Shown here: piece by piece, positions 8,214 through 31,588 of the stretch
How positions within the stretch are numbered: position 1 is the first letter of the stretch
How the letters are laid out: every line of letters starts with the position of its first letter
Assembly: GCF_045037415.1 (NCBI RefSeq)
Contig: NZ_CP173438.1
Length of the DNA: 64,000 nucleotides
Reading direction: 5' to 3' (one strand)
Source: Escherichia coli
GTDB lineage: Bacteria > Pseudomonadota > Gammaproteobacteria > Enterobacterales > Enterobacteriaceae
Position numbers and translations under genes: made by a program
The notes under the pieces: generated by a model
Seen by the model: the letters and a program-made list of their open reading frames with translations, nothing else
Told to the model about the DNA's origin: nothing
Databases searched by the model: none

Positions 8214-8885
8214 ATGATGAAGTTACTTCACTTATTTATGGATGAAATCACTATGGATCCTTTGCACGCCGTTTACCTGACCGTAGGATTGTTCGTGATT
8301 ACTTTTTTTAATCCGGGAGCCAATCTCTTTGTGGTAGTACAAACCAGCCTGGCTTCCGGTCGACGCGCGGGGGTGTTGACCGGGCTGGGCGTGGCGCTGG
8401 GCGATGCATTTTATTCCGGGTTGGGTTTGTTTGGTCTTGCAACGCTAATTACGCAGTGTGAGGAGATTTTTTCGCTTATCAGAATCGTCGGCGGCGCTTA
8501 TCTCTTATGGTTTGCGTGGTGCAGCATGCGCCGCCAGTCAACACCGCAAATGAGCACACTACAACAACCGATTAGTGCCCCCTGGTATATCTTTTTCCGC
8601 CGTGGATTAATTACCGATCTCTCTAACCCGCAAACCGTTTTATTTTTTATCAGTATTTTCTCAGTAACATTAAATGCCGAAACACCAACATGGGCACGAT
8701 TAATGGCCTGGGCGGGGATTGTGCTCACATCAATTATCTGGCGAGTCTTTCTAAGCCAGGCGTTTTCTTTGCCCGCTGTGCGTCGTGCTTATGGGCGTAT
8801 GCAACGCGTTGCCAGTCGGGTTATTGGTGCAATTATTGGTGTATTCGCGCTACGCCTGATTTACGAAGGGGTGACGCAGCGGTGA
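8214..8885 (+). CDS. yahN: LysE/RhtB-family amino acid exporter
   Basis: 223 aa hydrophobic ORF with LysE-type N-terminus; synteny. Confidence 0.85.
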   Translation: MMKLLHLFMDEITMDPLHAVYLTVGLFVITFFNPGANLFVVVQTSLASGRRAGVLTGLGVALGDAFYSGLGLFGLATLITQCEEIFSLIRIVGGAYLLWFAWCSMRRQSTPQMSTLQQPISAPWYIFFRRGLITDLSNPQTVLFFISIFSVTLNAETPTWARLMAWAGIVLTSIIWRVFLSQAFSLPAVRRAYGRMQRVASRVIGAIIGVFALRLIYEGVTQR

Positions 8886-9692: not shown

Positions 9693-9732
9693 ATTTCGCT
9701 CTCCTTAACTAAAAAGTTAAGGAGAGCGAAAT
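9693..9732 (-). terminator. Perfect 17 bp stem-loop (ATTTCGCTCTCCTTAAC-taaaaa-GTTAAGGAGAGCGAAAT) 36 bp downstream of yahK stop; probable terminator
   Basis: Exact inverted repeat read directly from sequence; no clean U-tract, so terminator function is uncertain. Confidence 0.45.
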
Positions 9733-9768: not shown

Positions 9769-10818
9769 TCAGTCTGTTAGTGTGCGATTATCGATAACAA
9801 AACGATATTTCACATCACCACGCAGCATTCGCTCATAGGCTTCATTAATTTGATCGGCCCGAATCATCTCTATATCAGCCACGATGCCATGTTCGGCGCA
9901 AAAATCGAGCATCTCCTGAGTTTCTGGAATGCCGCCAATCATAGAACCAGCTATCGCGCGGCGTTTCATGATCAGGTTGAAAACTTCCGGCGATTTATGC
10001 GGTGTCGCAGGCGCACCAACCAGCGTTATGGTGCCATCGCGCTTCAGCAAGGTGGTAAAATCGTCGAGATTATGTGGCGCAGCTACTGTATTCAAAATGA
10101 AATCGAAACTCTTCACATGAGCCACCATCTCATCGGCATTGCGTGAGTTAACAACTTCATCGGCCCCCAGGGCTTTTGCCGCTTCGCGTTTTGACTCAGA
10201 AGTGGTAAATGCCACCACATGCGCCCCCATCGCGTGGGCCAGTTTAATCCCCATATGTCCCAGACCGCCGATGCCGACCACGCCCACTTTTTTACCCGGC
10301 CCGGCCTGCCAGTGGCGTAGCGGCGAGTACGTGGTGATTCCTGCACACAATAAAGGAGCCACCGCCGCCAGCTGCTCTTGCGGGTGACGAATACGCAGAA
10401 CATATCGCTCATGAACGACGATCTGTTGTGAGTAGCCTCCCAGAGTATGGCCCGGTTCATCCGGTGTCGGCGAGTTATAGGTTCCGGTCATGTGATCACA
10501 GTAGTTTTCCAGCCCGTCTTCACACTCTTCGCAATGTTTACAACTGTCGACAATGCAGCCGACACCGACCAGATCGCCCGGCGCATGTTTTTCTACCTGA
10601 TCACCAACGGCTACCACGCGCCCCACAATTTCATGACCCGGCACGCAGGGGTAAACCGTCCCCGCCCACTCCGAACGGACCTGGTGGAGATCGGAATGGC
10701 AGACGCCACAGTAAGCGATTTCGATTTTGACATCATGCGGTCCCGGTTCACGCCGGGTGATATCCATCGGTTCAAGCGGTTGTTTAGCGGAATATGCACC
10801 AACAGCTTTGATCTTCAT
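9769..10818 (-). CDS. yahK: NADPH-dependent aldehyde reductase, zinc-type alcohol dehydrogenase family
   Basis: 349 aa ORF; Zn-ADH signature GHEIVGRV and CxxC structural-zinc cysteines seen. Confidence 0.9.
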   Translation of the reverse strand: MKIKAVGAYSAKQPLEPMDITRREPGPHDVKIEIAYCGVCHSDLHQVRSEWAGTVYPCVPGHEIVGRVVAVGDQVEKHAPGDLVGVGCIVDSCKHCEECEDGLENYCDHMTGTYNSPTPDEPGHTLGGYSQQIVVHERYVLRIRHPQEQLAAVAPLLCAGITTYSPLRHWQAGPGKKVGVVGIGGLGHMGIKLAHAMGAHVVAFTTSESKREAAKALGADEVVNSRNADEMVAHVKSFDFILNTVAAPHNLDDFTTLLKRDGTITLVGAPATPHKSPEVFNLIMKRRAIAGSMIGGIPETQEMLDFCAEHGIVADIEMIRADQINEAYERMLRGDVKYRFVIDNRTLTD

Positions 10819-24699: not shown

Positions 24700-26176
24700 G
24701 TGATGTCCCGAATGGCAGAACAGCAGCTTTATATACATGGTGGTTATACCTCCGCCACCAGCGGTCGCACCTTCGAGACCATTAACCCGGCCAACGGTAA
24801 CGTGCTGGCGACCGTGCAGGCCGCCGGGCGTGAGGATGTCGATCGCGCCGTGAAGAGTGCCCAACAAGGGCAAAAAATCTGGGCGGCGATGACCGCTATG
24901 GAGCGCTCGCGTATTCTGCGTCGGGCCGTTGATATTCTGCGTGAACGCAATGACGAACTCGCAAAACTGGAAACCCTTGACACCGGAAAAGCATATTCGG
25001 AAACCTCAACCGTCGATATCGTTACCGGTGCGGACGTGCTGGAGTACTATGCCGGGCTGATCCCGGCGCTGGAAGGCAGCCAGATCCCGTTGCGTGAGAC
25101 GTCATTTGTTTATACCCGCCGCGAACCGCTGGGTGTGGTGGCGGGGATTGGCGCATGGAACTACCCGATCCAGATTGCTTTGTGGAAATCCGCCCCAGCG
25201 CTGGCGGCAGGCAATGCAATGATTTTCAAACCGAGCGAAGTCACCCCGCTTACCGCGTTAAAGCTGGCCGAAATTTACAGCGAAGCGGGCCTGCCGGACG
25301 GCGTATTTAACGTGTTGCCGGGCGTGGGCGCGGAGAACCGGACAATATCTGACCGATCATCCGGGCATTGCCAAAGTGTCATTTACCGGCGGTGTCGCCA
25401 GCGGCAAAAAAGTGATGGCTAACTCGGCAGCTTCCTCCCTGAAAGAAGTGACCATGGAGCTGGGCGGTAAATCACCGCTGATCGTTTTCGACGATGCGGA
25501 TCTCGATCTCGCCGCCGATATCGCCATGATGGCGAATTTCTTCAGCTCCGGTCAGGTGTGTACCAACGGCACTCGCGTCTTCGTTCCGACGAAATGCAAA
25601 GCCGCATTTGAACAAAAGGTTCTGGCGCGCGTTGAGCGCATTCGCGCGGGCGACGTTTTCGATCCGCAAACTAACTTCGGCCCGCTGGTCAGCTTCCCGC
25701 ATCGCGATAACGTGCTGCGCTATATCGCCAAAGGCAAAGAGGAAGGCGCGCGCGTACTGTGCGGCGGCAATGTACTGAAGGGGGATAGCTTCGATAACGG
25801 CGCATGGGTTGCACCGACCGTGTTCACCGATTGCAGCGACGATATGACCATTGTGCGAGAAGAGATTTTCGGGCCAGTGATGTCCATTCTGATCTACGAG
25901 TCGGAAGACGAAGTCATTCGCCGCGCTAACGATACCGACTACGGTCTGGCGGCGGGTATCGTGACGGCGGACCTGAACCTCGCGCATCGCGTCATTCATC
26001 AGCTGGAAGCGGGTATTTGCTGGATCAACACCTGGGGCGAATCCCCGGCAGAGATGCCCGTTGGCGGCTACAAACACTCCGGCATTGGTCGCGAGAACGG
26101 CGTGATGACGCTCCAGAGTTACACCCAGGTGAAGTCCATCCAGGTTGAGATGGCTAAATTCCAGTCCATATTCTAA
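24700..26176 (+). pseudogene. betB: Betaine aldehyde dehydrogenase, reading frame broken by a single-base insertion (extra A at ~25336-25337); pseudogene or sequencing indel
   Basis: Frame 1 reads ...LPGVGAEN then garbage to a stop at 25422; deleting one A from gagAAcc restores ...[28 protein letters not shown]... continuous with ORF 25376-26176; intact BetB is ~490 aa. Confidence 0.8.
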
Positions 26177-26189
26177 CCAGGAGGTTTAT

Positions 26190-27860
26190 TTGCAATTTGA
26201 CTACATCATTATTGGTGCCGGCTCAGCCGGCAACGTTCTCGCTACCCGTCTGACTGAAGATCCGAACACAACCGTGCTGCTGCTTGAAGCAGGCGGCCCG
26301 GACTATCGCTTTGACTTCCGCACCCAGATGCCCGCCGCGCTGGCGTTCCCGCTACAGGGCAAACGCTACAACTGGGCCTATGAGACGGAACCCGAACCGT
26401 TTATGAACAACCGCCGCATGGAGTGCGGACGCGGCAAAGGTCTGGGCGGTTCATCGCTGATCAACGGTATGTGCTACATCCGTGGCAATGCGCTGGATCT
26501 CGATAACTGGGCACAAGAACCTGGTCTGGAGAACTGGAGTTATCTCGACTGCCTGCCCTACTACCGCAAGGCCGAGACTCGCGATGTGGGCGAGAACGAT
26601 TACCACGGTGGCGATGGCCCGGTGAGCGTCATCACCTCCAAACCCGGCGTCAATCCGCTGTTTGAAGCGATGATTGAAGCGGGCATGCAGGCAGGCTACC
26701 CACGCACGGACGATCTCAACGGCTATCAGCAAGAAGGTTTTGGCCCGATGGATCGCACCGTCACGCCGCATGGCCGTCGCGCCAGCACCGCGCGTGGCTA
26801 TCTCGATCAGGCCAAATCGCGCCCTAACCTGACCATTCGTACTCACGCCATGACCGATCACATCATTTTTGACGGCAAACGCGCGGTGGGCGTCGAGTGG
26901 CTGGAAGGCGACAGCACTATTCCGACCCGCGCGGCGGCGAATAAAGAAGTGCTGTTATGTGCAGGCGCGATTGCTTCACCGCAGATCCTGCAACGCTCCG
27001 GCGTCGGCAACGCTGAACTGCTGGCGGAGTTTAATATTCCGCTGGTGCATGAATTACCCGGCGTCGGCGAAAATCTTCAGGATCACCTGGAGATGTATCT
27101 GCAATACGAGTGCAAAGAACCGGTTTCCCTCTACCCTGCCCTGCAGTGGTGGAATCAGCCGAGAATCGGTGCGGAGTGGCTGTTTGGCGGCACCGGCGTT
27201 GGTGCCAGCAACCACTTTGAAGCAGGCGGATTTATTCGCAGCCGTGAGGAATTTGCGTGGCCGAATATTCAGTACCATTTCCTGCCAGTGGCGATTAACT
27301 ATAACGGCTCGAACGCAGTGAAAGAGCACGGCTTCCAATGCCATGTCGGATCGATGCGCTCGCCAAGCCGTGGGCATGTGCGGATTAAATCCCGCGACCC
27401 GCACCAGCATCCGGGAATTCTGTTTAACTACATGTCGCACGAGCAGGACTGGCAGGAGTTCCGCGACGCAATTCGCATCACACGCGAGATCATGCATCAA
27501 CCCGCGCTGGATCAATACCGTGGCCGCGAAATCAGCCCTGGTGTCGAATGCCAGACGGATGAGCAGCTCGATGAGTTCGTGCGTAACCACGCCGAAACCG
27601 CGTTTCATCCGTGCGGTACCTGCAAAATGGGTTATGACGAGATGGCTGTGGTTGACGGCGAAGGCCGCGTACACGGGCTGGAAGGCCTGCGCGTGGTGGA
27701 TGCGTCAATTATGCCGCAAATTATCACCGGCAATTTGAACGCCACGACGATTATGATTGGCGAGAAAATAGCGGATATGATTCGTGGGAAGGAAGCGTTG
27801 CCGAGGAGCACGGCGGGATATTTTGTGGCAAATGGGATGCCGGTGAGAGCGAAAAAATGA
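26190..27860 (+). CDS. betA: Choline dehydrogenase (GMC oxidoreductase, FAD-dependent)
   Basis: Probable TTG start 6 nt after AGGAGG RBS giving [15 protein letters not shown] (FAD Rossmann motif); 556 aa; the ORF-track extension to 26145 overlaps betB and is not used. Confidence 0.9.
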
Positions 27861-27896
27861 GTCGTGATGTGAACTGACTCAGGAACCTATCAGATT

Positions 27897-27955
27897 GAGA
27901 GTTACCGTTCTACTATGAGGACCGAATCCTTATATAAAACACTGAGGTAACTCTC
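27897..27955. repeat. 10 bp inverted repeat (GAGAGTTACC ... GGTAACTCTC) 37 bp past betA stop, at the proximal edge of the accessory island
   Basis: Read directly from sequence; could be a betA terminator or island boundary. Confidence 0.4.
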
Positions 27956-28944
27956 ATGCTTCATCGTGACAATCTCGCCAGCAAATTCTAAGCTGACTTG
28001 CTCAATCTGGCTGATGAATGTGCTATGCATACACAGATAAACTACAGATGAAATACCACTCAGCTTAAGAATTACGCCGCTAATGTTCCTGGCTATGGTT
28101 ACCTGTTCATTCCCGCTCACGGTTAGCATATACGAAAAGGGTTCTTGTAACGAGTACAAAAATAAGTCAGACCAAAACCACATGGAGCTTTAAACACGAT
28201 TCGTATAATTTATTAGCAGTGATTTATTTTTACTCTTCTTTAATTAATCATCATGCTTAAATATTTTTTAGCACAAGATTATCGCTTCGCTAACATTTTA
28301 GTTTACATTAATTTTCAATTGATAATAAAAAGTTGTTAATAAGTTTTTTGCGGAAAATAAAAAGTGTTGGAATACTCTCCATCAAATGAATGCAAAATAA
28401 ACAAATTGAGATATACAAAAAGTAAAAATCATTTAAATGAATATTTTAAATTTATGAGCAGAACCCATTAACAATGATTTACTCACGACCAGAAAAGTAA
28501 AGAACACCTTGCAATAATATGTATTTATAAATTCATATCATTGATATTAAACTAATCTTACTTTCTACCCTCCAAATTTATGCATCAAAAAAAACAAAAG
28601 TAAAATCAATTAGATACACAACAAGACGATCTCACAGGAAATGATGTTAAATATCTCAAAACTAATAAAAATCACTAAAACATTAGACGTAATACACATC
28701 CCACACGACCTGTCACTCATAGTTTTAATATTTATTTTTTCACATCATAGTAGATAAAAATACGCATTAAAAATGACTTGTAGAAAAGCTGCACAATAAA
28801 TAGTTCATATTTAATCTGTTGCGTAGAACTACTATTCAAAAAATCTTATTAATGAGATAATGAGATTACATCGATAACGTTCTGATTGCAGGCATACTTA
28901 TCTGGGTGTGCCTCTCTTTTTTTTACAACTGTACACGGTGGCGT

Positions 28945-29508
28945 ATGACGAGAAAATATCTCACACAGGATGAAGTCTACAGGCTGATGGATGCAGCCCA
29001 GAGCATGTCCTTTCCTGAAAGAAATCGCTGTCTAATTATGATGGCTTTCATTCACGGTTTTAGGGCCAGTGAACTTCTTGATTTACGTTTATCCGATATT
29101 GATGCATCTGGAAAACAACTTAATATTCGGCGTATTAAAAATGGTTTCTCGACAACACATCCTCTTCTTCCTGATGAATATAATTTGATCAAGTTGTGGC
29201 TTAAGCAGAGGAAGTTAATTGAAAACGGAGTTGAAGGAGACTGGCTTTTTCTCTCCCGGAAACGCCGCCCTATCAGCAGACAACATTTTTTTTCTATCAT
29301 TCGTGAGGCTGGAAAACGTGCAGGATTAGCTGTAAAAGCACATCCTCATATGTTACGTCATGCCTGTGGTTTTGCTCTGGCTGACAATGGTGTCGATACC
29401 CGACTACTTCAGGATTATCTGGGTCATCGAAATATTCAGCATACTGTCAGATACACAGCCAGTAATGCTGCTCGTTTTAAAGGGGTGTGGAAAAAAAAGC
29501 CTCGTTAA
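28945..29508 (+). CDS. FimB/FimE-type site-specific tyrosine recombinase (phase-variation recombinase, IpuA-like)
   Basis: ORF 28906-29508, probable start MTRKYLTQDEV; strong similarity by eye to FimE (LLDLRLSDID, INIRRIKNGFSTTHPL, HPHMLRHACGFALA, LGHRNIQHTVRYTASNAARF) including catalytic R-H-R-Y residues. Confidence 0.85.
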   Translation: MTRKYLTQDEVYRLMDAAQSMSFPERNRCLIMMAFIHGFRASELLDLRLSDIDASGKQLNIRRIKNGFSTTHPLLPDEYNLIKLWLKQRKLIENGVEGDWLFLSRKRRPISRQHFFSIIREAGKRAGLAVKAHPHMLRHACGFALADNGVDTRLLQDYLGHRNIQHTVRYTASNAARFKGVWKKKPR

Positions 29509-29520
29509 AACAGTACCTTC

Positions 29521-29798
29521 TGATTCAAAATGTCAGATTCCTACGTTTTCCTCAATTCTTCCATAAAAAAACAGCCCATTCAATTAAATAAAACACATAA
29601 CATGTTGATATTTCTAGCTAAAGTAAAATAACCCTATGATTTGAAATGATTAATCACAAAGGTCATACCAGTGATTAACTTTCGCCCATATCGTTAAATA
29701 ACACAAAATTAAAAACAATAAAAATCAAACAAATTAGATTTATATTCCAAGAAAATTAAATATTCAGGCTATTAAACCAAACCTGACATTTTGAATCA
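29521..29798. other. Candidate invertible DNA element (phase switch): 278 bp segment bounded by perfect 16 bp inverted repeats
   Basis: TGATTCAAAATGTCAG at 29521-29536 and its exact reverse complement CTGACATTTTGAATCA at 29783-29798; right end also forms palindrome CCTGACATTTTGAATCAAAATGTCAGG (29782-29808); lies between recombinase stop (29508) and regulator start (29838); internal sequence very AT-rich. Confidence 0.6.
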
Positions 29799-29837
29799 AA
29801 ATGTCAGGTTTTGTAGCAATGGCGTGGACGAGTCTGA

Positions 29838-30632
29838 ATGAAGAAGCCTCTGGTTATTATCAGTGCCTGTCAGTTCACCAGGCTGGCACTGGAGTCTCTC
29901 ATCCCAACGGACAGGTATATCGTGCGGGTGTACAGCAACGTCACTACAGAGGTTGAATTCGTTTTAAAGACCTCCTGTGGCTACCTGTTAGCTGATATCC
30001 CTTCGCTTCCTTCGGGGGAGTTGGTTCTTCTGGCTTGTCTCGCCCGTTTGCGGAGTGATGCCGGGCAATGGCAGGTCTGCCTGACCGGTGACTCCGACTG
30101 GTTCGATAATGCTCCTGCTGCAAGTCTGTATAACGGCTTCCCACGCATCGGCACCATGCTGACAGCGAGTCGTTATCAGAATCAAATTATCCGCTGGTTA
30201 CTGCGTCCTTTGCCCGGCGATATGAGCGATTTCTGGCTCCTGACTGCACGGGAGTTGAGCGTGCTTAAGATTCTGATGCAGGGCATGAGTTTCAGTGAGA
30301 TTGCCCGTTATGAACAACGCAGTTCAAAGACCCTGCATGCGATTGCCACACGGGCTTTAATGAAACTTGGACTGAGAACACTGAGCGATTTCAGGCTGCT
30401 CTATACGGGATGCGGTGACAGCAGAGTGAAACGGAATATACGGCTACATGCAAAATATATCGGACAACATTCCGCTCATCGACTCACTCAGTATGTGCAG
30501 AACATGGTATCCGGAATCCTTTATCCAGAGAAAGTTGCCGTTGGTGAATCAATAAATTCTGACGCCATTTCCGGAAAAGTACTTTCCGGACAAAGAAAAA
30601 ATATATCTAAAAAAAGACCAGGATTGTTATGA
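29838..30632 (+). CDS. LuxR/EcpR-like transcriptional regulator (IpuR-like)
   Basis: 264 aa ORF; C-terminal LuxR-type HTH (LTARELSVLKILMQGMSFSEIARYEQRSSKTLHAIATRALMKLGL); immediately downstream of the candidate switch. Confidence 0.75.
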   Translation: MKKPLVIISACQFTRLALESLIPTDRYIVRVYSNVTTEVEFVLKTSCGYLLADIPSLPSGELVLLACLARLRSDAGQWQVCLTGDSDWFDNAPAASLYNGFPRIGTMLTASRYQNQIIRWLLRPLPGDMSDFWLLTARELSVLKILMQGMSFSEIARYEQRSSKTLHAIATRALMKLGLRTLSDFRLLYTGCGDSRVKRNIRLHAKYIGQHSAHRLTQYVQNMVSGILYPEKVAVGESINSDAISGKVLSGQRKNISKKRPGLL

Positions 30633-30785
30633 CACAGCAGCGTTGTTACTACCACCCACTGCGGCGCACACGGACTCGCTACAGTGTAGGAGCCAAAATA
30701 TTTCTACTGTTCTGGGCTGCAGGATTGGGAGGCATGCTGTACAGCCTGTACAGCGTGCTGGCGTACTGACATCTGTGAGGGAAGG

Positions 30786-31547
30786 ATGCGTTTCGTTCTT
30801 TTCTGTCCCTCAGGAATTGTACCAGCGCAGTTCGCAGCTCTATCAACCGGTTCTGTCGGCAATGTTACCTGCATAAGAACAGAAGAGGAGTTACGCAATA
30901 AATTGCGGCACAGGCCACAGAGTGTCGTGATATCGGCAGGGCGACCTGCCGAATGCGCTGAAATGTGGTTCCGATTTTATCTGGATCACTCATTCGTGGT
31001 GGTGTTGTGCGTCGCGCCCTTTTTTCTGCCACCGGATGTGAGTATTTCTGGCGTTCTCAAAAACCTGAGGTTACTGAAACCAGGAATGTCAGTAGAGCGT
31101 GTCATCAGTATTGCAAATGCCTCTGGTGGGTTTTCAGGACTGAAACATGCAGAAAATTTGCCAGTTATGGACTGTTACTCTGTCTTTATGAAAGAGGTGA
31201 ATAACCGCACAAAGACAATCGTCATGTCAGAACGCTTCCCGGAAAAGCAAAAGAAGGTGTTGTCGTTGCTTCTTGCCGGACACAGCTGGGAATACAGTGC
31301 GCAGTTTCTCAAAACGGGGATAAGACAGATATGGCTTGCCGAGCAGTCGCTAAAAAAGCGTTGGGGGATACCGGACAGCATGTCATTGCGGGAAGCCCTG
31401 CTGCTGAGCAGCAATAATTTTCACGGTGATGGAAATGCATTGGAAACAACGAATGCCATGACATTGCGTGAAAACGGAAATACCAACAGGTATTCCGTGG
31501 TGGTAAATGCAGGGACGCAGGCTTTATCTCTGCATAAATATAAATAA
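30786..31547 (+). CDS. Second regulator-like protein with degenerate LuxR-type HTH
   Basis: 253 aa ORF; C-terminal region KQKKVLSLLLAGHSWEYSAQFLKTGIRQIWLAEQSLKKRWGI resembles a LuxR HTH; true start uncertain. Confidence 0.5.
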   Translation: MRFVLFCPSGIVPAQFAALSTGSVGNVTCIRTEEELRNKLRHRPQSVVISAGRPAECAEMWFRFYLDHSFVVVLCVAPFFLPPDVSISGVLKNLRLLKPGMSVERVISIANASGGFSGLKHAENLPVMDCYSVFMKEVNNRTKTIVMSERFPEKQKKVLSLLLAGHSWEYSAQFLKTGIRQIWLAEQSLKKRWGIPDSMSLREALLLSSNNFHGDGNALETTNAMTLRENGNTNRYSVVVNAGTQALSLHKYK

Positions 31548-31588
31548 GTGGGAAATTGAAATTAGTTACCAGAATGGAGAATTTCTTC

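What the first reader, a model, noticed from the sequence alone, without database searches (positions are those of the whole stretch)
29521..29798. Candidate invertible promoter switch flanked by perfect 16 bp inverted repeats
TGATTCAAAATGTCAG (29521-29536) and its exact reverse complement (29783-29798) bracket a 278 bp AT-rich segment. It sits 13 bp after the stop of a FimE-like recombinase and 40 bp before a LuxR-type regulator / autotransporter operon, which is the architecture of fim-type phase switches. The right repeat is embedded in a longer palindrome (29782-29808), so the recombinase half-site occurs in both orientations there. A TTGATA ... TAAAAT promoter-like pair inside the element points towards the regulator in this assembly, though the ~13 bp spacing is short. 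I recall a similar ipuA-ipuS-ipuR-upaE switch described in uropathogenic E. coli CFT073, so this may be that system or a variant rather than wholly new.
Basis: partly seen in the sequence, partly recalled or inferred. Interest (0 to 1): 0.8.

Follow-up and report, generated by a model that had tools for sequence, protein, structure and literature searches.

The report
Known hyxS invertible promoter switch

Summary
A perfect 16-bp inverted repeat (TGATTCAAAATGTCAG, 29521-29536 and 29783-29798) brackets a 246-bp, 26% G+C segment, between a FimB/FimE-type recombinase gene and a LuxR-type regulator gene.

The element is hyxS, the phase switch of island PAI-X (betA | ipbA=fimX=hbiF - hyxS - hyxR - hyxA - hyxB/upaB | ykgH). 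It was characterised in UTI89 and CFT073 by Bateman & Seed (2012). It is not ipuS.
- The recombinase is 187/187 identical to FimX of UTI89 and CFT073.
- The inner segment is 243/246 and 241/246 identical to those strains.
- The 16-bp repeat length matches the published description.

Among 5,426 complete E. coli genomes, 1,780 carry the switch in the window's orientation. Fifteen carry it exactly inverted between the repeats, in several lineages, which is natural evidence of inversion.

The window holds the majority orientation, which is probably OFF. The best sigma-70-like candidate (TTGAAT-17-AAGAAT) lies on the minus strand, points away from hyxR, and is conserved in a paralogous switch.

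Verdict: already known, low interest.

The parts
28945..29508 (+). ipbA (= fimX = hbiF), a tyrosine-type DNA invertase of 187 aa
   Evidence: It is 187/187 identical to the annotated IpbA of CFT073 and UTI89. It scores above the curated cut-off for NCBIfam PRK09870 (251.6 bits against 221) and PRK09871 (233.2 against 222). The catalytic R40, H135, R138 and Y170 are visible in GFRASE, HMLRHA and VRYT.
29521..29536 (.). Left inverted repeat (IRL), TGATTCAAAATGTCAG
   Evidence: It is invariant in all 13 E. coli loci compared. Alignments of the two orientations diverge exactly at its inner edge.
29521..29798 (.). hyxS invertible element: 278 bp including the repeats, 246 bp inner segment
   Evidence: The inner segment is 243/246 identical to UTI89 and 241/246 to CFT073, in the same orientation. 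It is exactly inverted in 15 complete genomes. The literature identifies it as hyxS (PMC6083910; PMC3789825).
29783..29798 (.). Right inverted repeat (IRR), CTGACATTTTGAATCA
29779..29811 (.). Perfect 33-nt palindrome centred on base 29795. It consists of the inner half-site, the TGAATCA core and an outer half-site AAATGTCAGGTTT.
   Evidence: The same layout (palindrome at the regulator-proximal repeat only) occurs in the paralogous switch L016-L018. As RNA it folds at -22.2 kcal/mol, z = -4.6. Reading it as two recombinase half-sites around a crossover core is inference.
29555..29583 (-). Best candidate sigma-70 promoter: -35 TTGAAT (29583-29578), 17-nt spacer, -10 AAGAAT (29560-29555). In this assembly it points towards ipbA; after inversion it would point towards hyxR.
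   Evidence: It is the top score in my position-weight scan, on either strand and in either orientation. A TTGAAC-17-AAGAAT pair sits at the homologous place in the paralogous switch (sequence, alignment). It falls below the threshold of the strict consensus scan. No transcription start data were available, so this part is inferred.
29838..30632 (+). hyxR, a LuxR-family regulator of 264 aa
   Evidence: It is 263/264 identical to HyxR of CFT073 and UTI89. It has a Pfam GerE domain at residues 135-183, E = 2e-6. RefSeq names it HyxR.
30786..31547 (+). hyxA, 253 aa, no recognised domain
   Evidence: It is 249-250/253 identical to annotated HyxA. It has no Pfam or NCBIfam match.
31589..33880 (+). 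hyxB (= upaB), an outer-membrane autotransporter of 763 aa
   Evidence: About 95% identical to HyxB of CFT073 and UTI89, with a 6-bp deletion at 31781. It matches TIGR01414, the autotransporter beta-barrel domain, at E = 5e-69. PMC3789825 states that hyxB is upaB.

Best explanation
The segment 29521-29798 is hyxS, the invertible promoter element of E. coli island PAI-X. IpbA (FimX/HbiF), a FimB/FimE-family tyrosine recombinase encoded immediately upstream, recombines the two 16-bp inverted repeats. This flips the 246-bp AT-rich segment between them. In one orientation a promoter inside the segment transcribes hyxR and the downstream hyxA-hyxB/upaB genes; in the other it does not. The result is heritable but reversible ON/OFF expression.

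What is shown here:
- The identity of the locus.
- A recombinase identical to the experimentally tested proteins.
- Perfect and conserved repeats.
- Both orientations existing in nature, with breakpoints inside the repeats.

What is taken from the literature:
- FimX alone inverts hyxS, in both directions.
- HyxR affects nitrosative-stress tolerance, macrophage survival and O-antigen chain length.
- Inversion of the hyx promoter gives transient phage resistance.

What is inferred:
- Strand exchange occurs in the TGATTCA core, with AAATGTCAG as the recombinase half-site.
- The promoter is the minus-strand TTGAAT-17-AAGAAT.
- The window therefore shows the OFF state (about 70% confidence on this last point).
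For: Locus identity:
- 1,903 of 5,426 complete E. coli genomes match 28900-30700. The match is annotated ipbA ('also known as HbiF and FimX') plus hyxR.
- CFT073 and UTI89 have the same order: betA - ipbA - hyxR - hyxA - hyxB - ykgH.
- IpbA is 187/187 and HyxR 263/264 identical to both reference strains.
- The inner segment is 243/246 and 241/246 identical, and the repeats are identical.

Literature:
- hyxS lies next to fimX, controls hyxR, has 16-bp repeats and is inverted only by FimX (PMC6083910).
- Whole-genome inversion detection found the hyxS inversion on FimX overexpression in UTI89 and CFT073.
- PAI-X consists of fimX plus hyxRAB, and hyxB is upaB (PMC3789825).

Natural inversion:
- A query inverted in silico is matched end to end by 15 genomes; the native query by 1,780.
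- The breakpoints fall exactly at the repeats.
- Five of the inverted genomes inspected carry the intact WP_001295805.1 IpbA. The eight inverted genomes inspected carry six different hyxR alleles, so the inversions are independent events.
- The repeats are invariant in 13 loci whose inner segments differ by up to 8%.

Enzyme: the NCBIfam tyrosine-type DNA invertase models are passed, and the RHRY residues are present.

Orientation:
- The best sigma-70-like site is on the minus strand and is conserved in the paralogous switch.
- The paralogue is collinear with the window and with the Salmonella T1 switch as deposited. That paper reports the deposited state as OFF in all but one GenBank isolate.
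- In E. fergusonii the wild-type orientation is the phage-sensitive state, and the authors interpret the inverted orientation as activation of the operon.
Against: - No reads or experiments exist for this particular strain, so inversion here is inferred from identity with tested strains.
- The primary paper (Bateman & Seed 2012) was not available. I could not check its ON/OFF assignment or any mapped transcription start.
- The candidate promoter has a weak -10 (AAGAAT) and falls below the threshold of the strict scan.
- My weight matrix uses approximate frequencies recalled from memory.
- Direct alignment of hyxS with the Salmonella switch is not significant (z = 0.4). The homology argument for OFF rests on the paralogue as an intermediate.
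Confidence: 0.93

Rival explanations
1. It is the ipuS switch, or a variant of it: the IpuA/IpuB-controlled element upstream of ipuR-upaE.
For: The overall architecture is the same: recombinase, short AT-rich invertible segment, LuxR-type regulator, autotransporter. PMC6083910 reports that the ipuS half-sites resemble those of hyxS.
Against: - ipuS has 7-bp repeats, is 260 bp long, has its distal repeat inside the ipuA coding sequence and sits next to two recombinase genes.
- Here the repeats are 16 bp and the left repeat lies 12 nt after the stop codon. There is one recombinase gene, preceded by about 1.1 kb of mostly non-coding DNA and betA.
- RefSeq names the genes ipbA, hyxR, hyxA and hyxB.
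- CFT073, which has ipuS, gives only one match to this region, at ipbA/hyxR (H53).
Confidence: 0.01
2. The switch is present but frozen in this strain: it is a relic that no longer inverts.
For: Decayed or locked versions exist elsewhere. O157 strain 272 has a frameshifted ipbA and an internal stop in hyxR. A dog-associated lineage has ipbA truncated by ISEc8. 99% of assemblies show one orientation.
Against: In the window ipbA is intact and identical to the functional FimX of UTI89 and CFT073. Both repeats are perfect, and hyxR, hyxA and hyxB are open. Genomes carrying this very IpbA protein occur in the inverted state.
Confidence: 0.05
3. The repeats are the ends of a small non-autonomous transposable element (MITE-like), or a purely structural or terminator palindrome, and not recombination sites.
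For: The segment is short and AT-rich with terminal inverted repeats. The right-end palindrome would form a stable RNA hairpin followed by UUUUGU.
Against: - The element is single-copy and always at the same locus (median one place per genome).
- There is no target-site duplication at its ends.
- It is found inverted in situ with unchanged flanks.
- Published experiments show recombinase-dependent inversion.
Confidence: 0.01

Closest known systems
hyxS / FimX (IpbA, HbiF) switch of PAI-X in UPEC UTI89 and CFT073 (Bateman & Seed 2012, Mol Microbiol 83:908, as cited in PMC6083910 and PMC3789825)
   Same: Everything tested matches: genomic position (betA | ... | ykgH), gene order, 16-bp repeats, an identical recombinase, and a 98-99% identical inner segment in the same orientation as both reference genomes.
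   Different: Only strain-level SNPs: 3-5 in the inner segment, one residue in HyxR, and about 5% plus a 2-codon deletion in HyxB/UpaB.
ipuS / IpuA-IpuB switch controlling ipuR-upaE in CFT073 (PMC6083910)
   Same: The same kind of device and the same downstream logic (LuxR-type regulator plus autotransporter). The recombinases are related, and FimX can also invert ipuS.
   Different: 7-bp rather than 16-bp repeats; 260 bp; the distal repeat lies inside the ipuA reading frame, so inversion truncates IpuA; two linked recombinases; a different island; no megablast-level sequence similarity.
fimS / FimB-FimE type 1 fimbrial switch
   Same: A tyrosine-recombinase promoter inversion in which the recombinase gene directly adjoins the switch. 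IpbA passes the FimB/FimE NCBIfam models, and FimX also acts on fimS (literature).
   Different: 9-bp repeats flanking 314 bp; the target is the fimA operon; two recombinases with directional bias. The alignment between the fimS and hyxS repeats is reported as poor.
Salmonella STM0716 switch controlling T1-antigen genes (PMC11294581)
   Same: The recombinase is 72% identical. The switch sits 10 nt after its stop codon. The core TGATTCAAAA is shared with hyxS, and a HyxA-like gene lies downstream. Deposited genomes are almost all in one (OFF) orientation.
   Different: The perfect repeat is only 10 bp. The 269-bp inner segment is not alignable with hyxS at a significant level. The downstream cargo is a polysaccharide biosynthesis cluster.

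Membership tests
hyxS (FimX/IpbA-controlled switch of PAI-X) | Perfect 16-bp inverted repeats bounding the element | tested here: met
   The 16-bp length is stated in PMC6083910.
hyxS (FimX/IpbA-controlled switch of PAI-X) | Lies between fimX/ipbA and hyxR, inside the fimX-hyxRAB island inserted between betA and ykgH | tested here: met
   ORFs; RefSeq annotation of matching loci; island description in PMC3789825.
hyxS (FimX/IpbA-controlled switch of PAI-X) | Sequence identity with the element shown experimentally to invert (UTI89, CFT073) | tested here: met
   Inner segment 243/246 and 241/246 identical, repeats identical. IpbA 187/187 identical.
hyxS (FimX/IpbA-controlled switch of PAI-X) | The segment actually inverts between the repeats | tested here: met
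   Shown at population level: 15 complete genomes carry the exact inversion and 1,780 the window's orientation. It cannot be tested for this individual strain.
hyxS (FimX/IpbA-controlled switch of PAI-X) | A promoter inside the element drives hyxR in one orientation only | tested here: inconclusive
   Only a candidate was found: TTGAAT-17-AAGAAT on the minus strand, conserved in a paralogue. The strict scan found none. Expression data come only from the literature.
ipuS (IpuA/IpuB switch) | 7-bp inverted repeats and a 260-bp element | tested here: not met
   16-bp repeats, and 278 bp including the repeats (246 bp inner segment), against the description.
ipuS (IpuA/IpuB switch) | Distal repeat inside the recombinase coding sequence, so that inversion truncates IpuA | tested here: not met
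   The left repeat starts 12 nt after the ipbA stop codon.
ipuS (IpuA/IpuB switch) | Two adjacent recombinase genes (ipuA, ipuB) with ipuR-upaE downstream | tested here: not met
   There is one recombinase gene, with about 1.1 kb of mostly non-coding DNA and betA upstream. The downstream genes are annotated hyxR, hyxA and hyxB. CFT073 gives a single match, at ipbA/hyxR.
fimS (type 1 fimbrial switch) | 9-bp repeats flanking a 314-bp segment between fimE and fimA | tested here: not met
   The repeat sequence and length, the element size and the neighbouring genes all differ. The fimS parameters are as quoted.
FimB/FimE-family tyrosine-type DNA invertases (the enzyme) | Passes the curated family models and keeps the R-H-R-Y catalytic residues | tested here: met
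   NCBIfam PRK09870 at 251.6 bits (cut-off 221) and PRK09871 at 233.2 bits (cut-off 222). R40, H135, R138 and Y170 are present.

The most novel reading that the evidence does not exclude
The asymmetry of the two recombination sites and the position of the promoter might add an undescribed layer of control.

(a) Only the regulator-proximal site is a full palindrome with two good half-sites. The recombinase-proximal site has one good and one degenerate half-site. This layout is conserved in a paralogous switch and could set a directional bias towards the majority (OFF) state.

(b) In the OFF state the candidate promoter fires convergently into the 3' end of ipbA. The orientation of the switch would then feed back on recombinase expression, analogous to orientational control of fimE. 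I did not find either point in the papers I could read, but the primary paper was not available.
Probability: 0.15. Interest if true: 0.3.

Novelty: already known. Interest (0 to 1): 0.1.

Why it matters
The switch itself has been described since 2012, so finding it again adds nothing fundamental.

Its biology is of practical interest. HyxR affects tolerance of nitrosative stress, survival in macrophages and O-antigen chain length. UpaB is an adhesin. Recent work links inversion of the hyx promoter to reversible phage resistance in E. coli Mt1B1 and E. fergusonii.

The survey done here is a modest by-product that a specialist could use:
- About 0.8% of complete genomes are assembled in the minority orientation.
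- One lineage is locked in that orientation by an IS insertion in ipbA.
- Decayed copies exist in the one O157 genome inspected (strain 272).

Tried and rejected
- ipuS identity: rejected (see the membership test).
The spacer is too short, it is absent from both scans and it is not conserved in the paralogue.
- Strict consensus promoter scan: found nothing inside the element on either strand, so I fell back on a rough weight matrix.
- Primary hyxS paper and two related papers: PMC3809820, PubMed 22221182, DOI 10.1111/mmi.13442 and PMC3749053 are not held. The published ON/OFF convention could not be checked.
- Supplement of the inversion-detection paper: holds scores only, no coordinates.
- Direct alignment of hyxS with the Salmonella T1 switch, to transfer its OFF assignment: not significant (z = 0.4). 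Only the indirect route through the paralogue works.
- Rfam scan of 27000-35000: no family.
- MITE or terminator reading: rejected on copy number, the absence of target-site duplications and inversion in situ.
- Search for the paralogous locus in complete E. coli genomes: no match.

Full report
**Observation.** The sequence shows TGATTCAAAATGTCAG at 29521-29536 and its exact reverse complement at 29783-29798. The match ends sharply on both sides. The repeats enclose 246 bp at 26% G+C. A perfect 16-mer inverted repeat with non-overlapping arms starting within 400 nt occurs at three loci in the 64-kb window. Two of these are this element: the repeat pair and the palindrome at its right end. Thirty block shuffles that preserve composition gave none. 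It is perfect over 29779-29811 and 95% over 29776-29814. The left repeat begins 12 nt after the stop codon of a 187-aa recombinase gene (28945-29508). The right repeat ends 39 nt before the ATG of a 264-aa regulator gene (29838-30632).

**What it is.** A megablast of 28900-30700 against 5,426 complete E. coli genomes found the region in 1,903 of them. It is annotated throughout as 'ipbA: tyrosine-type DNA invertase IpbA' and 'hyxR: LuxR family transcriptional regulator HyxR'. The RefSeq note reads 'IpbA is also known as HbiF and FimX'. CFT073 and UTI89 show the same order as the window: betT, betI, betB, betA, ipbA, hyxR, hyxA, hyxB, ykgH, ykgG.
- The window's IpbA is 187/187 identical to both reference proteins.
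- HyxR is 263/264 identical, HyxA 249-250/253, and HyxB about 95%.
- The inner segment is 243/246 identical to UTI89 and 241/246 to CFT073, in the same orientation and with identical repeats.

Battaglioli et al. (PMC6083910) state that hyxS lies next to fimX in CFT073 and UTI89, controls hyxR, has 16-bp inverted repeats and is inverted only by FimX. Phan et al. (PMC3789825) describe the island PAI-X as fimX plus hyxRAB, with hyxB the same gene as upaB. A whole-genome inversion screen detected the hyxS inversion specifically on FimX overexpression in both strains. The element is therefore hyxS.

**Why it is not ipuS.** The ipuS switch is 260 bp with 7-bp repeats. Its distal repeat lies inside ipuA, so inversion truncates the protein, and two recombinase genes adjoin it. 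None of this holds here. CFT073 carries both switches but gives only one match to 29400-29920, at ipbA/hyxR (H53).

**The enzyme and the other genes.** IpbA passes the curated cut-offs of the two NCBIfam 'tyrosine-type DNA invertase' models. It keeps the catalytic Arg, His, Arg and Tyr in GFRASE, HMLRHA and VRYT. HyxR has a GerE (LuxR-type) helix-turn-helix at residues 135-183. HyxA matches nothing in Pfam or NCBIfam. HyxB has an autotransporter beta-barrel.

**Natural evidence of inversion.** I built the in-silico inverted version of 29400-29920 and searched both versions. The native form is matched over at least 80% of its length in 1,780 genomes, the inverted form in 15. In the loci I fetched, the inner 246 bp are 229-243/246 identical to the window only after reverse complementation, while the flanks stay collinear. 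The alignment diverges exactly at the inner edge of the 16-bp repeat.

Five of the inverted genomes I inspected encode the same intact IpbA (WP_001295805.1). The eight inverted genomes inspected carry six different HyxR alleles, so the inversions arose independently.

Variants with an altered recombinase also exist:
- Six inverted genomes form one group at 94-95% identity, mostly dog-associated and all annotated 'DNA recombinase' rather than IpbA. In the one inspected, ipbA is cut down to its last 114 bp by an ISEc8 element, so the switch is locked in the minority orientation.
- APEC O18 has a 1-bp insertion after the catalytic Tyr codon that extends the reading frame into the switch.
- O157 strain 272 has a frameshifted ipbA and an internal stop in hyxR, in the majority orientation.

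The two repeats are invariant in all 13 loci, although the inner segments differ at up to 19 of 246 positions. Variation is concentrated in the middle of the segment.

**Anatomy of the recombination sites (inference).** Three related switches were compared: hyxS, a paralogous switch next to an 81% identical recombinase (L016-L018, 18-bp repeat TGGTTCAAAATGTCAGAT), and the Salmonella STM0716/T1-antigen switch (10-bp repeat TGATTCAAAA). The shared part is T-G-(A/G)-T-T-C-A followed by AAA. I read TGATTCA as the crossover core and AAATGTCAG as the recombinase half-site.

At the regulator-proximal site, both half-sites are good, which gives the palindrome. At the recombinase-proximal site, the outer half-site (overlapping the end of ipbA) is degenerate. 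The paralogue has the same asymmetry. The core is palindromic except for its central base.

**Which state is in the window (inference, about 70%).** The window has the orientation of UTI89, CFT073 and 99% of assemblies. The strict promoter scan finds nothing in the element. A rough position-weight scan puts the best site on the minus strand: -35 TTGAAT at 29583-29578, a 17-nt spacer, and -10 AAGAAT at 29560-29555. This site points towards ipbA now and would point towards hyxR only after inversion, with about 73 nt between the end of the -10 hexamer and the ATG.

The homologous place in the paralogous switch reads TTGAAC-17-AAGAAT, within a collinear alignment (z = 5.6 forward against 3.1 reversed). 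The paralogue in turn is collinear with the Salmonella switch as deposited (z = 4.4 against -0.2). That paper reports the deposited state as OFF in all but one GenBank isolate. In E. fergusonii the wild-type orientation is phage-sensitive, and the authors interpret the inverted orientation as activation of the operon.

I could not obtain the primary paper to check the published convention.

**Function (literature).** HyxR represses hmpA and affects nitrosative-stress tolerance and macrophage survival. hyxR and hyxA modulate O-antigen chain length and serum resistance in ST131. Inversion at hyxR was found in transiently phage-resistant E. coli Mt1B1. Reversible inversion of the hyx promoter mediates phage resistance in E. 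fergusonii.

**Verdict.** The general interpretation is right, the named system is wrong, and the proposed promoter and ON state are not supported. The element is an exact member of a described and experimentally characterised system: already known, low interest.

Noticed in passing
window 25336 (betB, 24703-26176): betB carries a 1-bp insertion (an extra A in GGAGAACCGG) relative to CFT073. It splits the gene into two ORFs (24700-25422 and 25376-26176). Only 3 of 5,178 genomes with this stretch match it exactly (strains 447, 439, Esc20); close relatives lack the extra base. It is either a rare strain-specific pseudogene or a shared assembly error.
   Followed up: partly
window 27861-28944: About 1.1 kb of very AT-rich DNA (24-33% G+C) lies between betA and ipbA, with no convincing gene apart from a 93-aa ORF on the minus strand at 27902-28183. 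A terminator-like hairpin followed by a T-run sits at 28890-28913, about 30 nt before the ipbA ATG. RefSeq annotates a small hypothetical gene, frameshifted in several of the genomes inspected, in the equivalent stretch of some genomes.
   Followed up: no
window 9693-9732: A perfect 18-bp-stem hairpin (ATTTCGCTCTCCTTAACT AAAA AGTTAAGGAGAGCGAAAT) lies in an intergenic region, between an ORF ending at 8885 (+) and one ending at 9769 (-). It is the only other long perfect inverted repeat in the window.
   Followed up: no
L016:4001-8567, L017, L018: A paralogous switch in assemblies labelled E. coli. It has an 81% identical recombinase and an 18-bp repeat TGGTTCAAAATGTCAGAT flanking 200 bp (L016) or 241 bp (L017 and L018, which carry a 41-bp hairpin-like insertion). 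A 242-aa and a 248-aa gene and an autotransporter follow, next to acetolactate decarboxylase and synthase genes. There is no megablast match in 5,426 complete E. coli genomes. I did not find it described in the papers read.
   Followed up: partly
L003:1-2606 (NZ_CM176494.1); hits H80-H85: Six genomes at 94-95% identity to the window, mostly dog-associated, all have the switch in the minority orientation and the recombinase annotated 'DNA recombinase'. In the one inspected (L003), ipbA is truncated by ISEc8 (IS66 family), so the switch is fixed there. The candidate -10 in that genome reads AAAAAT instead of AAGAAT (window position 29558 C to T).
   Followed up: partly
L011 (NZ_CP018239.1, O157 strain 272): ipbA is frameshifted and hyxR has an internal stop, while both 16-bp repeats remain perfect. 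This is a decaying copy of the system in this O157 genome.
   Followed up: no
L002:2046-2657 (APEC O18): A 1-bp G insertion after the catalytic Tyr codon changes the last five residues of IpbA and extends the reading frame 48 nt into the (inverted) switch. The C-terminus of the protein would then depend on switch orientation, reminiscent of IpuA and ipuS.
   Followed up: partly
window 29779-29817: Any transcript crossing the right-hand palindrome would form a 15-bp hairpin (-22.2 kcal/mol, z = -4.6) followed by UUUUGU, just upstream of hyxR. It might attenuate read-through from ipbA, or even the ON transcript. The strict terminator scan did not call it.
   Followed up: partly
window 29661-29671: A short palindromic motif GGT-N3-ACCAG (GGTCATACCAG) lies near the centre of hyxS. 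It recurs as TGGTACGACCAG in the paralogous switch and TGGTCCAACCAG in the Salmonella T1 switch, and could be a regulator binding site. Position 29662 varies (G to A) in three E. coli genomes.
   Followed up: no
window 31781 (hyxB/upaB): There is a 6-bp deletion relative to CFT073, with about 5% protein divergence, in the passenger domain of the autotransporter. The neighbouring hyxR and ipbA are nearly identical to CFT073.
   Followed up: no
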